Positions 29,260 through 44,284 of a stretch of 64,000 nucleotides of DNA are shown here, piece after piece. Source of the DNA: Arthrobacter sp. (GTDB lineage Bacteria; Actinomycetota; Actinomycetes; Actinomycetales; Micrococcaceae); NCBI GenBank assembly GCA_026393275.1, contig JAPLAM010000045.1:74795-138794 (forward strand), given 5' to 3'. The translations under genes were made by a program, and so were the position numbers. A model generated the notes under the pieces. The model was not told where the DNA came from. It saw only the letters and a program-made list of their open reading frames with translations, and ran no database searches. Within the stretch, counting starts at the first letter, position 1; every line of letters starts with the position of its first letter.

Positions 29260-29347
29260 GAGCATGGGCCGGCAGAGGCCCCGGGCTGCTTCAGCTTCCC
29301 ACGTGGTGGGGCCGTTGGGAGGTTGGGCCTGGCGGGTTGCCCCGAGT

Positions 29348-29760
29348 GGACATGCGCCGCGTCGAGGCCCGCGGATGGGCATGTTCCCGTTGTGTCCAAT
29401 CCTGGGTGTGACCACTGGGCATGTCCGGGTGTGACCACTGGGCATGTCCGACTGAGAACCGGGCCGCGTCTGCCGAAAAATGGGCATGTCCGGCCGTGGC
29501 GCGCACCGCTTCCTGGGGACATGCGCCGCGCCGAGGCCCGCGGATGGGCATGTTCCCGTTGTGTCCAATCCTGGGTGTGACCACTGGGCATATCCTACTG
29601 AGGATTGGCGTCGCTTCCTGGGGATATGCGCCGCGTCGAGGCCCGCGGATGGGCATGTTCCCGTTGTGTCCAATCCTGGGTGTGACCACTGGGCATGTCC
29701 TCCCGAAACCTGTGCCGCGCGTCGCGAAGATTGGGCATGTCCTACTGAGAACCGGGCCGC
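29348..29760. repeat. Repeat array 1: three 79-bp units with GGACATGC/GCATGTCC ends plus TGGGCATGTCC satellites
   Basis: Units at 29348-29426, 29517-29595, 29622-29700; 23-bp tandem duplication 29404-29449. Confidence 0.93.
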
Positions 29761-29780
29761 GCTTCCGACGAGGTTCACCC

Positions 29781-34441: not shown

Positions 34442-36979
34442 TCACTGGGGTTCGACGACGACGTCCGCTGGGGCCTTGTCCAGGCGCCAGCCGCGCCAGA
34501 CCGGGTGCCGGAGCTTCCCGCTTCCGGTCCAGTCGCCGAAGGTGACCTCGCCCACGAGTCTGGCGGACACCCACCGGGCATCCGCGGCGTCCTCCGCCGG
34601 GACGTCCGCAAAGGGCGACGTCTTGCGCGGCATGGCATCGAGCTGCTGCCGCAGTTCCTCGAGTTCGCGGGTGCTGAACCCGCTGCCCACCCGGCCCACG
34701 TAGCGCAGCTTCGGCCCGTCCGGGATACCCAGCAGCAGCGAACCGACCGAGTCGCGGCGCTCGCCGTTGCCGGGCCGCCAGCCGCCGACCACCACCTCCT
34801 GGGTTTTCTCGAACTTGAGCTTGAGCCAGGAGCGGCTCCGCTGCCCGACGTAGCGCCCGTCGACGCGTTTGGCCATCACACCTTCCAGCCCCAGTTCCTC
34901 GGCGCTCGCCAGGATGTGCCCGACGTCGGCGTCGATCACCGCGGACAGTTCCACCGGACAGCCGCCGGGCGGAGGGCCGGCGCCGAGGAAGGCTTCGAGC
35001 CGGCTCCGGCGCTCCTTCAGCGGGCGGCGGCGGAGATCCTCGCCGCCCTCGGTGAGCAGGTCGAAGAGCATCAGGCGCACCGGGGTGGCGGTCCGCGCCT
35101 TCGCGACGTCGCCGGCCTTGGTCAGCTTCATCCGTTCCTGCAGCAGCCCGAAGTCGGGACGGCCGGACGGGCCGACGGCGATGATCTCACCGTCGGCGGC
35201 GAAGTCCTGCGGCGGCCAGCAGGCCCGGTCCGTGAGCTCCGGGTAGCTGGCAGACATGTCGTTGCCGTTGCGGCTGATCAGCCGGATCCGGTCCGCGTCG
35301 CCCAGGACCAGGGCCCGCACGCCGTCCCACTTGAGCTCGAACTGCCAATCCTTGTCCGCCAGGTCCGCCCTGGTCCCGGCGCTGGCCAGCATCGGGGCGA
35401 GCAACCCCGGGTCCGGGGCGGGGGCCGGGGTAGGGTTGGCGCCCTGGGCCGGAGCCGGGCGGGTCGCGGGAAGTTCCGCCGCCGGCGCCGGGTGGGCCGG
35501 CCGCCCACCCGGGGCGTCCATGAGGTGGATGAGCCATTGGTCGTTGGCCTGGCCGGTGTGGATCAGCGCGAACCTCCGGACACCGCCCAGCCCGCCGCCC
35601 TCCTGCCCGGTGAGGGTGGCGATGACTTCCTTACCCGCGATCCACTTCTCGCATTCGTAGTGCCCCCGGTCCCAGATGGTGACGGTGCCGGCGCCGTACT
35701 GGCCCTTGGGGATGGTGCCTTCGAAGTCCGCGTAGTCCATCGGGTGGTCCTCCGTCTGGACCGCGAGATGGTTCTGGGCCTTGCTGGTGGGGACTCCCTT
35801 GGGGAGCGCCCAAGACACCAGCACGCCGTCGCGCTCGAGGCGGAAGTCAAAGTGCAGCCGGCTGGCGTGGTGCTCCTGGATGACGAAACTCTCCCGGAGC
35901 GCGCCGCCGTCGTTCCTGCTGAGATGCTGCTCGGCCGTGAACGGCTCCGGGGTGGCTGCGGCGTTCCGTTTGGTGCGGTATTCCGCCAGCCGGGGGTCGG
36001 CGTCGCCCCCGTTGCCGCTGCCAGCGGGCCGTTGCGATCCCCGCGCCGCGGATCCGGCGTCGTCGAAGGCCGCGGGAGTGCCGTGGTGCGCGCCGCCGGA
36101 GATGACGGCGAAGGGGTCCTTGCCGGCCCGGACCCGCTTGATCACTTCCTGGTAGTCGAGCTGGTGCAGCGAAGTGGAGCGGAGCTCCTGCCACGTCCGC
36201 GGCGCCGCCACGGTGGGGCGGAGCCTGCCGCGCAGGGAGTAGGGCACGATGGTGGTCTTCGCGGCGCTGTTCTGGCTCCAGTCCACCAGCACCTTGCCGG
36301 TGCGCAGGGTCTTTTTCATGTCGCTCACTGCCAGCTCCGGGTGGTCCGCCTCCAGCGCTCGGGCCAGTTCGTGCGCAAACTCGGACACCTGGTCCGAGCT
36401 TTGCGTCCCGTCCAGGCCGGCGTAGAGGTGGATGCCCTTGCTACCGCTGGTCACGGGCACCGGGTCCAGGCCGACGTCCTGCAGGATGCCGCGGGCCAGC
36501 AAGGCGACCTCCACGCACTCGGCCAGCCCGGCGCCGTCGCCGGGATCCAGGTCCAGCACCAGCCTGTCCGGCGGCAGGGCGTTGCCGTGCGGATCCACCC
36601 GCCACTGCGGCACATGGATTTCCAGCGCCGCGATCTGCGCCAGCCAGGTGAGGGTGGCCAGATCGTTGACCAGCGGGTACTGGATGGCGCGCTCCTTGTG
36701 CGTAATAGAGGCGCGCGGCACCCAGCCCGGCGTGGAGTGGTCCAGGTTCTTCTGGAAGAACATCTCGCCCGGCGCTTCGGCGGTCCCCACGCCGTGCACC
36801 CAGCGCTTCCGGGTGGCGGGCCGGTTCGCCGCCGCGGGGATCAGCACCGGCGCCACCACGGCGTAGTAGGCGAGGACGTCGGCCTTGGTGGTCCCGGTTT
36901 CCGGATACATGATCTTGTCCAGGTTGGTCAGCACCAGTTCCCTGCCATCAACCCGGACGCGTTCCTTACTCTCGGCCAA
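34442..36979 (-). CDS. ligD: Multifunctional NHEJ ligase D (Pol-PE-Lig)
   Basis: 'TNLDKIMYP', 'DLDPG', PE 'QEHHASRLHFDFRLE...EDHP', ligase 'KWDG', 'LRHPVWRGWR.DK'. Confidence 0.95.
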   Translation of the reverse strand: MAESKERVRVDGRELVLTNLDKIMYPETGTTKADVLAYYAVVAPVLIPAAANRPATRKRWVHGVGTAEAPGEMFFQKNLDHSTPGWVPRASITHKERAIQYPLVNDLATLTWLAQIAALEIHVPQWRVDPHGNALPPDRLVLDLDPGDGAGLAECVEVALLARGILQDVGLDPVPVTSGSKGIHLYAGLDGTQSSDQVSEFAHELARALEADHPELAVSDMKKTLRTGKVLVDWSQNSAAKTTIVPYSLRGRLRPTVAAPRTWQELRSTSLHQLDYQEVIKRVRAGKDPFAVISGGAHHGTPAAFDDAGSAARGSQRPAGSGNGGDADPRLAEYRTKRNAAATPEPFTAEQHLSRNDGGALRESFVIQEHHASRLHFDFRLERDGVLVSWALPKGVPTSKAQNHLAVQTEDHPMDYADFEGTIPKGQYGAGTVTIWDRGHYECEKWIAGKEVIATLTGQEGGGLGGVRRFALIHTGQANDQWLIHLMDAPGGRPAHPAPAAELPATRPAPAQGANPTPAPAPDPGLLAPMLASAGTRADLADKDWQFELKWDGVRALVLGDADRIRLISRNGNDMSASYPELTDRACWPPQDFAADGEIIAVGPSGRPDFGLLQERMKLTKAGDVAKARTATPVRLMLFDLLTEGGEDLRRRPLKERRSRLEAFLGAGPPPGGCPVELSAVIDADVGHILASAEELGLEGVMAKRVDGRYVGQRSRSWLKLKFEKTQEVVVGGWRPGNGERRDSVGSLLLGIPDGPKLRYVGRVGSGFSTRELEELRQQLDAMPRKTSPFADVPAEDAADARWVSARLVGEVTFGDWTGSGKLRHPVWRGWRLDKAPADVVVEPQ

Positions 36980-37019: not shown

Positions 37020-38072
37020 ATGAGAGCCATCTGGAAAGGCGCGATAGCGTTCGGGCTGGTCAACGTACCGGTCAAGGTCTATAGCGCGACCGAGGACCAC
37101 GACATCAGTCTGCATCAGGTCCATAACGCCGACGGCGGCCGGATCCGCTACCAGCGCCGGTGCGAGATCTGCAGCAAGGTCATCGACTATGAAGACATCG
37201 ACAAGGCCTACGAGGACGATGGCCGCACGGTAATTCTCAACCGGGAGGAACTCAAGTCGATCCCGGCGGAGAACAGCCATGAGATCGAGGTAGTGCAGTT
37301 CGTGCCCGCGGAGCAGCTCGACCCGATGATGTTTGAGAAGAGCTATTACCTTGAGCCGGACGCCAAGTCGCCCAAGGCCTATGTGCTGCTGCGCCGGGCC
37401 TTGGAAGACACCGACCGGGTGGCTGTCGTGCAGTTCGCGCTGCGGGAAAAGACGCGGCTTGGTGCGTTGCGGGTCCGCGGCGATGTGCTGGTGTTGCAGG
37501 GGCTGCTGTGGGCCGACGAGGTGCGCGAGGCGAGCTTTCCCGCGCTCGAGACCAGCGTGCGGATCTCGACGCAGGAGCGGGAAATGTCCGCGGCCCTGGT
37601 GGACTCGATGGCGACCGACTTCGACCCGGCGCAGTTCACCGACGACTACCAGTTGCAGTTGCGGAAGCTGATCGATGCCAAGATCGAGCAGGGCGAGTCG
37701 CTGGACACGGAGGAGACCTTCGGCGCCCCGGCGGCGGAGGCCGGAACCGGCGAGGTGATCGACTTGATGGAGGCCCTCAAGCGCAGTATTGAGCGAAAGC
37801 GCGGGACGGCTGCCGGCGCAGGCGGCGGTGCTGCCGCCGACGACGACGCCGCCGACCGCGGGGAGACCGGCAGCCAAGGGAAAACCGCTGCAAGGGCGCC
37901 CCGGTCCACGGCCGCTCCGAAGGCCGCAGCCAGTTCCTCCGCGAAGACTACTGCGGCGAAGACTACGGCCGCGAAGGCCACGGCGGCGAAGACTACGGGG
38001 GATAAGACCACTGCCGCGAAGGCCCGCGCATCCAAGACGGCTGCGCCGAAGGAGGCCCGTAAGGGCGCCTGA
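37020..38072 (+). CDS. ku: Ku protein with Lys/Ala/Thr-rich tail
   Basis: 'MRAIWKGAIAFGLVNVPVK', 'KSYYLEP', 'VIDLMEALKRS'. Confidence 0.96.
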   Translation: MRAIWKGAIAFGLVNVPVKVYSATEDHDISLHQVHNADGGRIRYQRRCEICSKVIDYEDIDKAYEDDGRTVILNREELKSIPAENSHEIEVVQFVPAEQLDPMMFEKSYYLEPDAKSPKAYVLLRRALEDTDRVAVVQFALREKTRLGALRVRGDVLVLQGLLWADEVREASFPALETSVRISTQEREMSAALVDSMATDFDPAQFTDDYQLQLRKLIDAKIEQGESLDTEETFGAPAAEAGTGEVIDLMEALKRSIERKRGTAAGAGGGAAADDDAADRGETGSQGKTAARAPRSTAAPKAAASSSAKTTAAKTTAAKATAAKTTGDKTTAAKARASKTAAPKEARKGA

Positions 38073-38114: not shown

Positions 38115-38402
38115 TCAGGAATTCCGCAGAGCGGAGATCAGGTCGCTCTTCTTCTGGGCCGAATAGCCCCTGAGGCCGATCTCCTTGGCCTTTTCCTTAA
38201 GTTGCGGCACGGTCCAGTCCTCATAGTCTCCGGATTTGCCGCCCTTACGGCCCACGGAGGAGCGGCCGCGCTTGGCTGCGGCATTCGAAATGCGCGCTGC
38301 TTTCTGCTTCGAGGCGCCGTCCTTCAGCAGCGCTTCGTAGAGTTCGGGGTCTTTGATGCTGGGGCTCTCGGAACCCTGCGGCGCCCCCTTCTTCGCGGGC
38401 AT
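38115..38402 (-). CDS. Small basic protein with C-terminal Rho-N/HEH-like domain
   Basis: 'SIKDPELYEAL...GASKQKAARISN', 'WTVPQLKEKAKEIGLRGYSAQKKSDLISALR'. Confidence 0.85.
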   Translation of the reverse strand: MPAKKGAPQGSESPSIKDPELYEALLKDGASKQKAARISNAAAKRGRSSVGRKGGKSGDYEDWTVPQLKEKAKEIGLRGYSAQKKSDLISALRNS

Positions 38403-38404
38403 GG

Positions 38405-38917
38405 CTAGCGCGGCCCCTCGGCGGCGGGAGCGGCGGGGCCGACGTCGTCGACGTCGTTGACCTCGCCGCGGTCAACGGAGGAGCGCCACTCGCCGGTTTC
38501 GATGCCGCGGGCCTCGATGAACGACTTGAACCTGCCCAGGTCCGCGCTTACCTGACGGCCGTCCGCACCGACGGCGGAACCGGCCTTCTCCAGCACGCCC
38601 TCGGGCTCCCACTCGAGTTCGACGCTGACGCGGCTGCGCTCGGGGCCGAGGGACTCAAACGTGACGGTGCCGGCATTGCGGGGTTTGTCCGTGCTGACCC
38701 ACGGGATCCTGCGGTCCGGGGTCTGCTCGGTGATCTGGGCCAGGTACTCACGCCGCACTCCGGCAATGTCGGTGCGGAACTGGAGGGAGGTTTCGTCTAT
38801 CTGTTCCACGGCTTCGACCCCCTTCATGAACTCAGGGAAGGTCTCGAACTGGGTCCACTGGTTGTACGCGGTGGATACCGGGACATCGACTTCGATGCTT
38901 TCCTGCACGCTTGCCAC
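38405..38917 (-). CDS. SRPBCC (polyketide cyclase-like) protein
   Basis: 'SIEVDVPVSTAYNQWTQFETFPEFM.GV'; AGGAGA SD before GTG 38917. Confidence 0.9.
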   Translation of the reverse strand: MASVQESIEVDVPVSTAYNQWTQFETFPEFMKGVEAVEQIDETSLQFRTDIAGVRREYLAQITEQTPDRRIPWVSTDKPRNAGTVTFESLGPERSRVSVELEWEPEGVLEKAGSAVGADGRQVSADLGRFKSFIEARGIETGEWRSSVDRGEVNDVDDVGPAAPAAEGPR

Positions 38918-39073: not shown

Positions 39074-39619
39074 GGGACATGCCCTCCGGGTCGTCCCGCC
39101 ACTGGACATAGTGCCTATACGTCCACTCGCGGCGGCCAGGACTGGGCATGTCCCCCCCGGGCTGGTCTCGAAAATTGGGCATGTCCCCCCGGGCTGGTCT
39201 CGAAAATTGGGCATGTCCCACCGCGCCGGGAGAATCCACGGGACATGCACTCCGGATGGGGCCGCCACTGGACATAGTGCCTATATGTCCACGGACATAG
39301 TGCCTATATGTCCACGCGCGGCGGCCAGGACTGGGCATGTCCCCCCCGGGCTCGTCTCGAAAATTGGGCATGTCCCCCCGGGCTGGTCTCGAAAATTGGG
39401 CATGTCCCCCCGGGCTGGTCTCGAAAATTGGGCATGTCCCCCCGGGCTGGTCTCGAAAATTGGGCATGTCCCACCGCGCCGGGAGAATCCACGGGACATG
39501 CACTCCGGATGGGGCCGCCACTGGACATAGTGCCTATATGTCCACGCACTCCGGATGGGGCCGCCACTGGACATAGTGCCTATATGTCCACGCGCCGCGG
39601 CCAGGACTGGGCATGTCCC
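39074..39619. repeat. Repeat array 2: modular array of 32/33-bp units and 23-bp palindromes
   Basis: Six TGGGCATGTCCCCCC(C)GGGCTGGTCTCGAAAAT units; five TGGACATAGTGCCTATATGTCCA-type palindromes. Confidence 0.95.
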
Positions 39620-39712
39620 ACCGGGCCGGCAACGAGAACTGGGCCTTAACCACGGACGGCCGCCGGCGCGCCGCCCGACAGGGCAACGGACCGGCGGCCG
39701 CACGCAGTGGAA

Positions 39713-39991
39713 CTATTCGGCGTCGTGGTCCGTCTCGAGGATCTGGACGAGGCGGTCCAGAGCGGCGTCGGCGCCGTCACCGTCGGCACGCAGCACCACA
39801 ACCTCGCCGTGCGATGCGCCCAGGCTCATCAGCGACAGGATGCTCGCGGCGTCCATGGCCTCGTCCTCCGGTTCGCCGAGTCGCGCGATGGTGATGTCGA
39901 GATCGAACTCGCCTGCGGCCTCGGCAAAGATGGCGGCCGGGCGGGCATGCAGCCCAACGCGGCTGGCAATGGTGGCGTTACGTTCGGTCAT
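39713..39991 (-). CDS. ptsH: PTS phosphocarrier HPr
   Basis: GLHARPA; 'ASILSLMSLG'. Confidence 0.95.
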   Translation of the reverse strand: MTERNATIASRVGLHARPAAIFAEAAGEFDLDITIARLGEPEDEAMDAASILSLMSLGASHGEVVVLRADGDGADAALDRLVQILETDHDAE

Positions 39992-44107: not shown

Positions 44108-44284
44108 GGGGACATCCCCATCCTTGGTGCCCGCGGTTCGCTGGACATGCCCGTTGCTGGGCTTGGGCGTGGGACATGTCCAGAGGCGGTGCTGCCCAGT
44201 GTGGGACATGCCCAGTCCTTGAGCTCAGGAGTGGACACTTCGGGCCCATGTCCTTTGGTCAGGCCGGGGGTTGGGCATGTCCCC
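44108..44284. repeat. Repeat array 3: degenerate copies of the GGACATG/CATGTCC core
   Basis: Cores at 44108, 44143, 44171, 44203, 44271; 44203-44218 is the exact reverse complement of GGACTGGGCATGTCCC in array 2. Confidence 0.75.

What the first reader, a model, noticed from the sequence alone, without database searches (positions are those of the whole stretch)
39074..39619. Array 2: hierarchical repeat with variable copy number built from the same GGACAT/ATGTCC word
Seen: with D = 23-bp palindrome TGGACATAGTGCCTATATGTCCA, E = GC linker, B = 32/33-bp unit, A = TGGGCATGTCCC, C = linker holding an inverted GGGACATGCA, the order is D E B B A C D D E B B B B A C D (part C) D E A. D at 39103, 39269, 39292, 39522, 39568; B at 39143, 39176, 39332, 39365, 39397, 39429. 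The linkers differ from array 1 but the core is shared, so the core is the conserved signal. The 32-bp period is about three helical turns, as expected for phased protein binding. Copy-number changes point to recent expansion. Function unknown: nuclease substrate, nucleoid or topoisomerase site, or RNA processing element.
Basis: partly seen in the sequence, partly recalled or inferred. Interest (0 to 1): 0.68.

Follow-up and report, generated by a model that had tools for sequence, protein, structure and literature searches.

The report
Amplified REP-like repeat cluster, Arthrobacter
The flagged array is a real, recently expanded cluster of an undescribed family of 79-base foldback repeats scattered between genes in one Arthrobacter lineage, and a single DNA-binding nuclease gene that always sits between such repeats may be their partner enzyme.

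Summary
It is one locus of a dispersed intergenic repeat family. The unit is a rigid 79-nt foldback: GGACATGCCC, 19 nt, GGACATA-N7-TATGTCC, 19 nt, GGGCATGTCC. The outer arms are often amplified in tandem.

The genome holds 48 full units in 30 intergenic regions and none in genes, mostly at gene 3' ends. The family was found only in one clade of the window's genus (Arthrobacter/Pseudarthrobacter): 52 of 151 genomes, and no other Micrococcaceae genus sampled.

Array 2 lies beyond ptsH's own terminator hairpin. It occurs only here and, much smaller, in the nearest relative, so its modules expanded recently.

The genome has no RAYT, the units have no target duplications, and Rfam gives no match. 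In form the family is REP/BIME/REPIN-like.

A single-copy gene elsewhere in the genome encodes an AbiEi-type winged helix fused to a Vsr-like nuclease. It is flanked on both sides by these repeats in all 34 species inspected and is under purifying selection. That parallels REP/RAYT and NTS/Ssn pairs, but the link is phylogenetically confounded and enzymatically untested (about 0.35).

Earlier notes of this scan report the same pairing on other DNA.

The parts
39075..39153 (.). Unit 1: complete 79-nt foldback unit (GGACATGCCC, 19 nt, GGACATAGTGCCTATACGTCC, 19 nt, GGGCATGTCC)
   Evidence: Sequence. It fits the fixed 10+19+21+19+10 geometry. It folds as a long hairpin on both strands: -53.3 and -48.5 kcal/mol, z = -5.4 and -4.7.
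39144..39218 (+).
   Evidence: TRF 32 nt x2.4, 95% matches. Box positions 39144, 39177, 39209. No fold signal on its own, z = +0.27.
39241..39342 (.). Unit 2: left arm variant GGACATGCAC, then the central palindrome duplicated in tandem (39270-39290 and 39293-39313), then the right arm at 39333-39342
   Evidence: TRF 23 nt x2.2 at 39265-39316; sequence; unit table.
39333..39471 (+). Tandem right arms of unit 2: five GGGCATGTCC boxes (39333, 39366, 39398, 39430, 39462), period 32-33 nt
   Evidence: TRF 32 nt x4.5, 97% matches; the repeat finder family D3.
39494..39618 (.). Unit 3: left arm variant at 39494-39503, a 46-nt duplication of [left spacer + D] (D at 39523-39543 and 39569-39589), right arm at 39609-39618
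   Evidence: TRF 46 nt x2.0, 100% matches, 39500-39593.
39153..39549 (.). Higher-order segmental duplication: 144-nt blocks 39153-39296 and 39406-39549, 99% identical
   Evidence: the repeat finder family D1.
39649..39708 (-). ptsH's own terminator-like G+C-rich hairpin (no U tract), between ptsH and the array
   Evidence: Fold -53.3 kcal/mol, z = -5.1. A comparable inverted repeat is visible by eye at this position in L120 and L132. The consensus terminator scan found no U-tract terminator.
39713..39991 (-). ptsH (HPr), the gene upstream of the array in the direction of transcription
   Evidence: Pfam PTS-HPr, E = 1.4e-25.
38405..38908 (-). SRPBCC / polyketide-cyclase-family gene, downstream neighbour of the array
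   Evidence: Pfam Polyketide_cyc, E = 1.2e-17; start chosen by my own coding-potential model.
29338..29763 (.). Array 1 of the same family: three 79-nt units with a variant centre GGGCATGTTCCCGTTGTGTCC, plus extra arms, between convergent genes
   Evidence: units C94_104171, 104340, 104445; TRF 105 nt x1.9.
44110..44282 (.). Array 3 of the same family: one degenerate unit plus extra boxes, upstream of the fruR-fruK-fruA-ptsH operon
   Evidence: unit C94_119027. Boxes are also present at the orthologous site in G021, G004 and G019.

Best explanation
Array 2 is a locally amplified cluster of a clade-specific family of REP/BIME/REPIN-like intergenic foldback repeats.

Shown:
- The family unit is a rigid 79-nt element. 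It has two inverted 10-nt boxes (GGACATGCCC ... GGGCATGTCC), each 19 nt from a central 21-nt palindrome (GGACATA-N7-TATGTCC).
- Units sit only between genes and mostly at gene 3' ends.
- The outer boxes multiply in tandem on the outward side of the centre, giving [<]n-D-[>]m.
- Most sites are shared among related species, but module counts differ.
- Array 2 itself exists only in this genome and its nearest relative. Here it has grown to 3 units, 5 centres and 9 right arms through near-identical 23-, 32-, 46- and 144-nt duplications.

Inferred:
- Growth and shrinkage occur by slippage or unequal recombination between modules.
- The boxes are recognised by a single-copy protein encoded elsewhere in the genome (G000:C42:126043-126852). 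It has an AbiEi-type winged-helix DNA-binding domain fused to a Vsr / I-Bth0305I-like PD-(D/E)XK nuclease, and its gene is itself framed by mirror-image arrays of the same boxes.
- Nicking or cutting at the boxes, followed by repair, would seed duplication, homogenisation and occasional new insertions. This parallels what RAYTs are thought to do for REP/REPINs and the way Ssn nucleases act on NTS repeats.

Likelihoods: the repeat-family reading is about 0.9. The claim that this nuclease is the cognate enzyme is about 0.35. A terminator or mRNA-stabiliser side effect of the hairpins is compatible with either and untested.
For: Anatomy:
- Every match in this genome to the D+arm pattern is 50 nt long and every match to the full-unit pattern is 79 nt long. 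There are 48 full units.
- The D-to-arm spacer is 19 nt in 13/13 cases here and 175/175 in relatives.
- Units fold as hairpins: mean z = -3.1, and arms pair with each other in 37/48. Unit 1 gives z = -5.4 and -4.7 on the two strands.

Placement:
- 0 of 48 units overlap genes.
- The 30 host intergenic regions are 15 tandem, 10 convergent and 5 divergent. The background for regions of at least 150 nt is 535, 101 and 360.
- The core word is about 15-fold denser in intergenic DNA.

Distribution:
- More than 118 loci in a public genome scan, nearly all titled Arthrobacter or Pseudarthrobacter, the rest unclassified or Micrococcaceae MAGs.
- 0 matches in 373 genomes of 37 other Micrococcaceae genera, with a reversed control also at 0.
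- 52 of 151 genomes of the genus.

Dynamics:
- At the ptsH locus, boxes occur only in G000 (17) and G021 (6) among the 20 same-genus loci with readable downstream sequence.
- 38 of 46 other G000 repeat sites also hold boxes in G021, G004 or G019, with different module counts.

Nuclease link:
- The domains are AbiEi_4 plus REase_MTES_1575.
- The AF2 model has pLDDT 90. It matches AbiEi 6y8q, Rv2827c, I-Bth0305I, Vsr and NGO0050.
- D199, E209, D211 (and G212) are invariant and H216 nearly so across 31 homologues.
- Median dN/dS is 0.10.
- Orthologues of at least 66% identity occur in 48 of 151 genomes. 45 of those are repeat-positive, and the other 3 carry variant repeats.
- All 34 orthologous loci inspected are flanked on both sides, '<' upstream and '>' downstream.
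- Paralogues and the 50%-identical positional orthologue of repeat-free sister species are not flanked.
- The one subclade that deleted or truncated the gene keeps only 5-14 strict units, against a median of about 21.
- In an unbiased look at 118 loci, 6 of the 12 ORFs framed by boxes are this gene.

Published precedents for repeat-plus-flanked-nuclease pairs are PMC3116915 (REPIN/RAYT) and PMC11893778 (NTS/Ssn).
Against: Against the nuclease link:
- No enzymology, binding data or transcript data exist.
- On a ptsH-fruA tree the repeat-positive genomes form essentially one clade (7 of 8 rows in one 100/100 clade). The gene-repeat co-occurrence is therefore one or two evolutionary events, not 45.
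- Repeat sites are generally conserved (83%), so 34/34 flanking at the nuclease locus is only modestly more than inheritance alone predicts.
- A DUF1810-like gene is also recurrently framed by boxes (3 of 12).
- The gene loss is a single event.
- The two paralogues in this genome have no detectable repeat family of their own.
- Pfam's nuclease hit is below its gathering score (29.7 against 38.2 bits).
- An earlier scan note on a related family records a later check that priced the 'nuclease spreads the repeats' claim at only 18/100.

Against a simple hairpin reading:
- The 19-nt spacers of a unit are no more complementary to each other than to spacers of other loci.

Against the exact counts:
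- Array copy numbers come from a 115-contig draft and were not checked against reads.
Confidence: 0.7

Rival explanations
1. The boxes are binding sites for a host DNA-binding protein. This could be a nucleoid or topological factor, or the winged-helix protein acting only as a repressor whose operator has multiplied. The arrays would work on duplex DNA as insulators, domain boundaries or protein sinks, with no nuclease-driven copying.
For: - There are three conserved near-palindromic boxes at strictly fixed 19-nt spacing, while the spacer sequence drifts.
- Spacers within a unit are not specifically complementary, which argues against selection for a perfect hairpin.
- The N-terminal domain of the linked protein resembles the AbiEi antitoxin. 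From my own recollection of the literature, AbiEi is an autorepressor that binds inverted repeats.
- Perfect palindromes GGACATGTCC lie just upstream of the gene.
Against: - The arm-to-arm period is not fixed (modes 29 and 32-33 nt), so helical phasing is not conserved.
- Heterotypic boxes are strongly preferred over perfect palindromes (80 against 19 and 7 intergenic).
- The nuclease residues are invariant and under purifying selection, which would be unnecessary for a pure repressor.
- Repeat-free sister species do without these sites.
Confidence: 0.2
2. The units act at the RNA level as bidirectional U-tract-less terminators or 3'-end stabilising hairpins, and are kept for that reason. The arrays would be by-products of selection for strong termination between genes.
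For: - There is a 3'-end bias: 25 of 30 host regions abut at least one gene end, and convergent regions are about 3-fold enriched.
- Units are symmetric and fold stably on both strands.
- That actinobacterial terminators often lack U tracts is general knowledge, not tested here.
Against: - ptsH already has its own strong hairpin before the array.
- The tandem B arms have no fold signal (z = +0.27).
- 5 host regions are divergent promoter regions.
- Termination does not explain conserved box sequences at fixed spacing, clade restriction, or the framed nuclease gene.
- There is no Rfam match.
- Transcript data were unobtainable.
Confidence: 0.15
3. The units are MITEs, internally deleted copies of a conventional DDE-type insertion sequence that used the inverted boxes as terminal inverted repeats and is now lost or rare.
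For: - The arms are inverted repeats, the elements are short and non-coding, and they are dispersed.
- The [<]n ... [>]m layout recalls transposon ends with multiple transposase-binding sites (my own knowledge of Tn7 and Mu ends).
Against: - There are no target-site duplications above chance for k = 2-6 at three offsets.
- No coding element other than the single-copy nuclease gene was seen between box arrays in this genome.
- Sites are mostly shared among species rather than polymorphic.
- Units end at variable numbers of arms.
- I did not systematically search all transposase families.
Confidence: 0.07
4. The array, or at least its copy numbers, is an assembly artefact of a short-read draft.
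For: - The genome is a 115-contig draft.
- Perfect 32-nt and 46-nt tandem copies are hard to count from short reads.
- Reads could not be inspected.
Against: - The array lies inside a 160-kb contig with unique flanks.
- A homologous but smaller array sits at the same site in an independent genome (L120).
- Comparable arrays occur in single-contig relatives, for example the locus from G018:C1.
- The family is present in more than 50 independent assemblies.
Confidence: 0.05

Closest known systems
REP / BIME elements and REPIN-RAYT systems of Proteobacteria (PMC3116915, PMC3337134, PMC5581495)
   Same: - Short palindromic, non-coding, strictly extragenic repeats biased to gene 3' ends.
- They are organised into mosaic clusters of variable copy number and lack target-site duplications.
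- They are largely vertically inherited at conserved sites.
- A single-copy gene under purifying selection, framed by inverted copies of the same repeats, goes with them.
   Different: - There is no Y1/HUH RAYT in the genome (PF01797 absent at 99.4% completeness).
- The core carries no GTAG-type tag.
- The unit is a three-box, 79-nt element of rigid geometry rather than two REPs.
- The candidate enzyme is a winged-helix plus Vsr-like PD-(D/E)XK nuclease.
- The host is an actinobacterium.
NTS repeats and the Ssn site-specific ssDNA nucleases (GIY-YIG) of Neisseria and others (PMC11893778)
   Same: A dispersed short repeat present in many copies is associated with one nuclease gene. For NTS/Ssn the paper demonstrates the specificity of the nuclease for its repeat; here that specificity is only inferred.
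   Different: - The nuclease superfamily differs (GIY-YIG against PD-(D/E)XK/Vsr-like with an AbiEi-type wHTH).
- Here no cleavage or binding has been shown.
- The repeat architecture differs: three boxes with tandem arms.
BOX elements of Streptococcus pneumoniae (boxA-boxB(n)-boxC); comparison from my own knowledge, not tested here
   Same: A modular intergenic repeat in which an internal or outer module varies in tandem copy number between loci and strains; foldback potential; no encoded protein.
   Different: The sequence and host phylum are unrelated. No cognate protein is known for BOX. Here the variable module is the terminal arm, and a candidate enzyme exists.
AbiEi antitoxin / Rv2827c-type proteins, and Vsr / I-Bth0305I / DUF559 endonucleases (structures 6y8q, 1zel, 1cw0, 3r3p, 3hrl)
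   Same: The linked protein's model matches AbiEi and Rv2827c over the N-terminal winged helix and middle domain. Its C-terminal domain matches Vsr-fold nucleases, including a homing endonuclease.
   Different: - No AbiEii toxin gene is adjacent, so it is not an AbiE toxin-antitoxin pair.
- It is not a T:G mismatch repair enzyme by context.
- It is not inside an intron or intein like classical homing endonucleases.

Membership tests
REP/BIME, REPIN-RAYT | Short palindromic repeats confined to intergenic DNA, in many copies per genome | tested here: met
   48 full units in 30 intergenic regions and 0 in genes. 80 of 115 exact core words lie in the 13% of the genome that is intergenic. Hairpin folds have mean z = -3.1.
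REP/BIME, REPIN-RAYT | Preference for gene 3' ends (convergent or co-directional gaps) | tested here: met
   Tandem 15, convergent 10, divergent 5, against a background of 535, 101 and 360. The gene calls are my own crude model.
REP/BIME, REPIN-RAYT | A cognate RAYT (IS200/IS605-like Y1 HUH transposase, PF01797) in the genome, flanked by the repeats | tested here: not met
   No PF01797 match in the 99.4%-complete genome, while the control genomes respond. The gene that is flanked by the repeats belongs to another fold.
REP/BIME, REPIN-RAYT | Conserved GTAG-type tetranucleotide at the foot of the REP hairpin | tested here: not met
   The unit consensus shows GGACATGCCC / GGGCATGTCC boxes and no conserved GTAG at the unit ends.
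REP/BIME, REPIN-RAYT | The flanked gene is single-copy, vertically inherited and under purifying selection | tested here: met
   There is one orthologue per genome. It is syntenic (typA - membrane gene - repeats - gene - repeats - orf82 - fdxA) in the loci whose flanks were long enough to read. Median dN/dS is 0.10. This feature is met by an unrelated enzyme.
MITE | Terminal inverted repeats | tested here: met
   The left and right boxes are reverse complements of each other, and they pair in 37 of 48 minimum-energy folds.
MITE | Target-site duplications flanking each copy | tested here: not met
   Flank identity for k = 2-6 at three offsets equals the permutation expectation.
MITE | A parent insertion sequence with the same ends and a transposase | tested here: inconclusive
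   None was seen among the repeat clusters of this genome. No systematic transposase search was done.
NTS/Ssn system | The associated nuclease is a GIY-YIG (Ssn) protein | tested here: not met
   Pfam gives AbiEi_4 and REase_MTES_1575. The fold matches Vsr, I-Bth0305I and DUF559 nucleases.
NTS/Ssn system | The nuclease demonstrably binds and cleaves at its repeat | not testable with these tools
   This needs purified protein and oligonucleotide substrates.
AbiE (type IV) toxin-antitoxin | An AbiEi antitoxin gene paired with an adjacent AbiEii nucleotidyltransferase toxin gene | tested here: not met
   The neighbours are a 124-aa membrane protein, an 82-aa ORF and fdxA, with no second gene in an operon. 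The C-terminus is a nuclease domain instead.
Known structured RNA families (Rfam 15) | A match to a curated covariance model | tested here: not met
   There is no hit in the array at gathering thresholds. At E <= 1 the only hit is a chance-level Atu_L6 match outside the array.

The most novel reading that the evidence does not exclude
The repeats are the genomic substrate of a previously uncharacterised class of repeat-associated enzyme: an AbiEi-type winged helix fused to a Vsr-like PD-(D/E)XK nuclease. This protein would recognise the GGRCATGYCC boxes. Its nicking would drive the tandem amplification seen in array 2, the homogenisation of units, and rare new insertions such as the one behind ptsH. 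That would make it an actinobacterial, mechanistically independent counterpart of REP/RAYT and NTS/Ssn.
Probability: 0.3. Interest if true: 0.8.

Novelty: new variant of a known kind. Interest (0 to 1): 0.6.

Why it matters
How REP-like repeats arise, persist and expand is understood only for the RAYT-serviced families of Proteobacteria and, more recently, for Ssn/NTS. This family differs on three counts. Its geometry is unusually rigid and easy to recognise. It has a clear phylogenetic onset inside one genus, with repeat-free sister species that carry a 50%-identical positional orthologue of the candidate enzyme. It also has one natural loss of the gene.

Together these make the question 'does a dedicated nuclease maintain a repeat population?' directly testable in culturable soil bacteria.

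If the protein proves to be a sequence-specific nuclease or nickase for a 10-bp box, it would also assign a function to a branch of the widespread AbiEi/DUF559-type proteins of Actinobacteria. Practically, the arrays are hypervariable markers for strain typing and a likely cause of contig breaks in Arthrobacter drafts.

Tried and rejected
- **Rfam:** no family matches the array at gathering or E-value thresholds.
- **RAYT:** PF01797 is absent.
- **CRISPR-like reading of the 32-nt period:** rejected, because the 'spacers' between B arms are identical and the conserved part is only 10-18 nt.
- **Whole-array folds:** uninformative (z = -2.3 and -1.6).
- **Spacer covariation:** in-register pairing of the 19-nt spacers is only 19-58% Watson-Crick. 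Spacers within a unit are no more complementary than spacers from different loci. I therefore dropped the idea of a selected, fully paired hairpin.
- **Target-site duplications:** none.
- **Repeat families of the two paralogous nuclease genes in this genome:** none detected, although blastn-short is insensitive even for the true family.
- **Insertion boundaries:** the ptsH locus and the C84 locus compared with G021 gave indels that include non-repeat DNA or flanks too diverged to read, so no target site could be read.
- **Co-occurrence as evidence:** I first treated gene-repeat co-occurrence (45 both, 3 gene only, 5 repeat only, 98 neither) as strong evidence. The tree and the site-conservation survey showed it is largely one clade with inherited sites, so I down-weighted it.
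- **Literature:** searches for Arthrobacter REP-like repeats, DUF559 with repeats, REase_MTES_1575, and AbiEi with DUF559 found no description.
Full report
**1. Observation**

- TRF finds 32 nt x2.4 (39143-39219), 23 nt x2.2 (39265-39316), 32 nt x4.5 (39332-39476) and 46 nt x2.0 (39500-39593).
- The repeat finder adds a 144-nt block present twice at 99% identity, 39153-39296 and 39406-39549.
- The core GGGCATGTCC (up to 1 mismatch) occurs 42 times in the window against 9 +/- 3 in shuffles. These fall in three clusters: 29348-29742, 39075-39618 and 44110-44282.
- The array lies between ptsH (39713-39991, minus strand; Pfam PTS-HPr) and an SRPBCC/polyketide-cyclase-family gene (38405-38908, minus strand).
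- ptsH is followed first by its own strong hairpin at 39649-39708 (-53.3 kcal/mol, z = -5.1). The array is therefore not ptsH's terminator.

**2. What the array is made of**

The window's genome is 3.96 Mb, 67% G+C and 115 contigs. In it the exact core occurs 115 times against about 17 expected from composition, in 66 clusters.

Aligning all copies of the central palindrome shows one rigid unit:
- GGACATGCCC (10 nt), 19 nt, GGACATA-N7-TATGTCC (21 nt), 19 nt, GGGCATGTCC (10 nt).
- Every match to the centre-plus-arm pattern is 50 nt long, and every full-unit match is 79 nt long.
- The centre-to-arm spacer is 19 nt in 13/13 cases here and 175/175 in loci from other species. Those loci were selected with an N19 pattern, but their additional units could have differed and did not.
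- The two arms are reverse complements of each other, and the spacer sequences drift.
- Arms multiply in tandem on the outward side of the centre, giving [<]n-D-[>]m.

Array 2 is three such units:
- 39075-39153 is intact.
- 39241-39342 has its centre duplicated.
- 39494-39618 has a 46-nt duplication of spacer plus centre.
- The right arms are present 3, 5 and 1 times.

**3. Properties of the family**

Placement:
- With a home-made coding-potential gene caller (3600 genes, 87% coding), all 48 full units lie in 30 intergenic regions and none overlaps a gene.
- Those regions are 15 co-directional, 10 convergent and 5 divergent. The background for gaps of at least 150 nt is 535, 101 and 360.
- The exact core is about 15-fold denser in intergenic than in coding DNA. 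The palindromic centre is 27:0 intergenic to coding. The reversed control word has 0 intergenic copies.

Structure:
- Single units fold as long hairpins, with mean z = -3.1 and arms paired to each other in 37/48. Unit 1 gives z = -5.4 and -4.7 on the two strands.
- The 19-nt spacers of a unit are not more complementary to each other than to spacers of other loci.
- The tandem B arms alone have no fold signal (z = +0.27).
- The conserved features are therefore three boxes at fixed distances, not a fully paired stem.

Spacing and other tests:
- The arm-to-arm period has modes at 29 and 32-33 nt across the family. This weakens the three-helical-turns argument.
- There are no target-site duplications.
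- There is no Rfam match.
- There is no RAYT: PF01797 is absent in a 99.4%-complete genome.

**4. Distribution and dynamics**

Distribution:
- A scan of one genome per species found more than 118 loci. Nearly all are titled Arthrobacter or Pseudarthrobacter; the rest are unclassified Actinomycetota, Micrococcaceae or unnamed-bacterium MAGs.
- Among 401 Micrococcaceae genomes of 38 genera, the unit pattern occurs only in the window's genus, and a reversed control pattern gives 0.
- Within the genus, 52 of 151 genomes are positive, with 3-57 strict matches each apart from two single-hit genomes.
- On a ptsH-fruA tree, 7 of 8 sampled positives form one 100/100 clade.

The ptsH site:
- Boxes are present only in this genome (17) and its nearest relative G021 (6 boxes, 2 units). 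They are absent in the 18 other same-genus loci with readable downstream sequence, including two with the same ptsH-SRPBCC synteny.
- Array 2 is therefore a comparatively young site that has expanded in this lineage. The near-identity of its internal duplications says the same.

Other sites:
- 38 of 46 orthologous counterparts of this genome's other repeat sites in G021, G004 and G019 also carry boxes, with different module counts.
- The family behaves like REP/REPIN populations. Sites are mostly inherited, modules expand and contract locally, and sites are occasionally gained or lost.

**5. A candidate partner gene (outside the window)**

Screening repeat clusters for genes framed on both sides turned up G000:C42:126043-126852.

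The protein:
- It is 269 aa and has an AbiEi_4 winged helix (E = 1e-7) plus a REase_MTES_1575 nuclease domain. The nuclease hit scores 29.7 bits, below Pfam's cut-off.
- An AlphaFold model built from 31 homologues has pLDDT 90.
- The model matches AbiEi (6y8q) and Rv2827c (1zel), and over the C-terminal domain the homing endonuclease I-Bth0305I (3r3p), Vsr (1cw0) and the DUF559-like NGO0050 (3hrl).
- D199, E209, D211 and G212 are invariant and H216 nearly so.
- Median pairwise dN/dS among 23 orthologues is 0.10.

Association with the repeats:
- Orthologues of at least 66% identity exist, one per genome, in 48 of 151 genomes of the genus.
- 45 of these are repeat-positive by the strict pattern. 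The other three (G009, G216, G465) have variant repeats beside the gene.
- All 34 orthologous loci inspected are flanked within 500 nt on both sides by boxes, predominantly '<' upstream and '>' downstream.
- Those with long enough flanks lie in the same syntenic slot: typA, membrane gene, gene, orf82, fdxA.
- Paralogues are not flanked.
- Repeat-free sister species carry a 50%-identical positional orthologue with no repeats, or an empty slot.
- Four repeat-positive species lack the gene. They share one rearranged locus, with the gene deleted in two and reduced to an N-terminal remnant in two. They hold only 5-14 strict units, against a median of about 21.
- A fifth repeat-positive genome without the gene, G024, is only 86% complete.
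- In an unbiased pass over the 118 loci, 6 of the 12 ORFs framed by boxes are this gene.

**6. How strong is the link?**

It is weaker than the raw counts suggest.
- The co-occurrence reduces to roughly one gain and one loss.
- Repeat sites are generally conserved (83%), so constant flanking is partly inheritance.
- A DUF1810-like gene is also recurrently framed (3 of 12).
- The two paralogues here show no repeat family of their own.
- Nothing biochemical is known.

What favours the link is the combination of five things: a sequence-specific DNA-binding module fused to an intact nuclease under purifying selection; mirror-image framing; the coincidence of the family's origin with a sharp divergence of this protein (50% identity against 95-98% for its neighbours); fewer units after loss; and two published precedents of the same logic with unrelated enzymes (REPIN/RAYT, PMC3116915; NTS/Ssn, PMC11893778).

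I put the partnership at about 0.35 and some functional binding relation at about 0.5.

**7. Earlier notes of this scan**

I queried the notebook of earlier findings after I had found the gene.
- It holds many AI notes of AbiEi/DUF559-type nuclease genes framed by their own repeats in other actinobacterial genomes. One concerns another Arthrobacter genome (e1-5225352).
- It also holds a later check of a related case that priced the 'nuclease spreads the repeats' claim at 18/100 (e1-2301526).
- The pairing was therefore found before by this scan on other DNA. I treat these notes as leads, not support, and the low price tempered my odds.
- Notes on this window's array 1 and on the bracketing of the fru operon agree with what I see.

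**8. Comparison and novelty**

In form and behaviour the family is REP/BIME/REPIN-like, and in modularity it is BOX-like. It fails the defining membership tests of REP/RAYT (no RAYT, no GTAG tag), of MITEs (no target duplications, no parent element seen) and of Ssn/NTS (different nuclease superfamily).

I found no description of it in the searchable literature. I class it as a new variant of a known kind.

Limits of this work:
- The genome is a draft.
- Gene calls are my own.
- The tree rests on a single locus.

Noticed in passing
window 39649-39708 (- strand): A strong G+C-rich hairpin without a U tract lies directly after ptsH (-53.3 kcal/mol, z = -5.1). A comparable inverted repeat is visible by eye at this position in relatives. 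It is probably the real ptsH/fru operon terminator.
   Followed up: partly
window 38115-38402 (- strand): A 95-aa protein with DUF7218 plus a Rho_N/SAP-like C-terminal domain lies immediately downstream of the SRPBCC gene (stop-start overlap region 38402-38408).
   Followed up: partly
window 34442-36979 (-) and 37020-38072 (+): A divergent pair that reads by eye as LigD (845 aa) and Ku (350 aa). Ku has a C-terminal low-complexity tail encoded by a 15-nt tandem repeat (37941-38021; TRF 15 nt x5.4). Neither was Pfam-tested.
   Followed up: no
L027:1877-2371, L059:3183-3743, L068:6736-7173 (other Arthrobacter genomes): A second gene, which looks by eye like a DUF1810 family member (not Pfam-tested), is also framed on both sides by boxes of this repeat family in three species. 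Being framed is therefore not unique to the nuclease gene.
   Followed up: partly
G000:C17:~107420, G000:C51:~74757, and upstream of the orthologues in L187, L188, L189, L157: All members of the AbiEi-Vsr-like gene family looked at share a TCCACAT(A/G)G-like motif 60-100 nt upstream of the start codon. It may be a common operator or promoter element.
   Followed up: no
G000:C51:74757-75030: About 105 nt upstream of one paralogous nuclease gene is directly repeated twice. No other copy was found in the genome by blastn-short.
   Followed up: partly
genome-wide (G000): Heterotypic boxes (one GGACAT half and one GGGCAT half) far outnumber the two perfect palindromes in intergenic DNA (80 against 19 and 7). 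The GGGCAT half always faces the central palindrome, so the boxes are directional copies rather than symmetric operators.
   Followed up: partly
L132 (G018) between ptsH and the SRPBCC gene: At the site of array 2, this relative instead carries an extra small ORF (about 165 aa, plus strand) and no repeats, so the intergenic region is a hotspot for different insertions.
   Followed up: no
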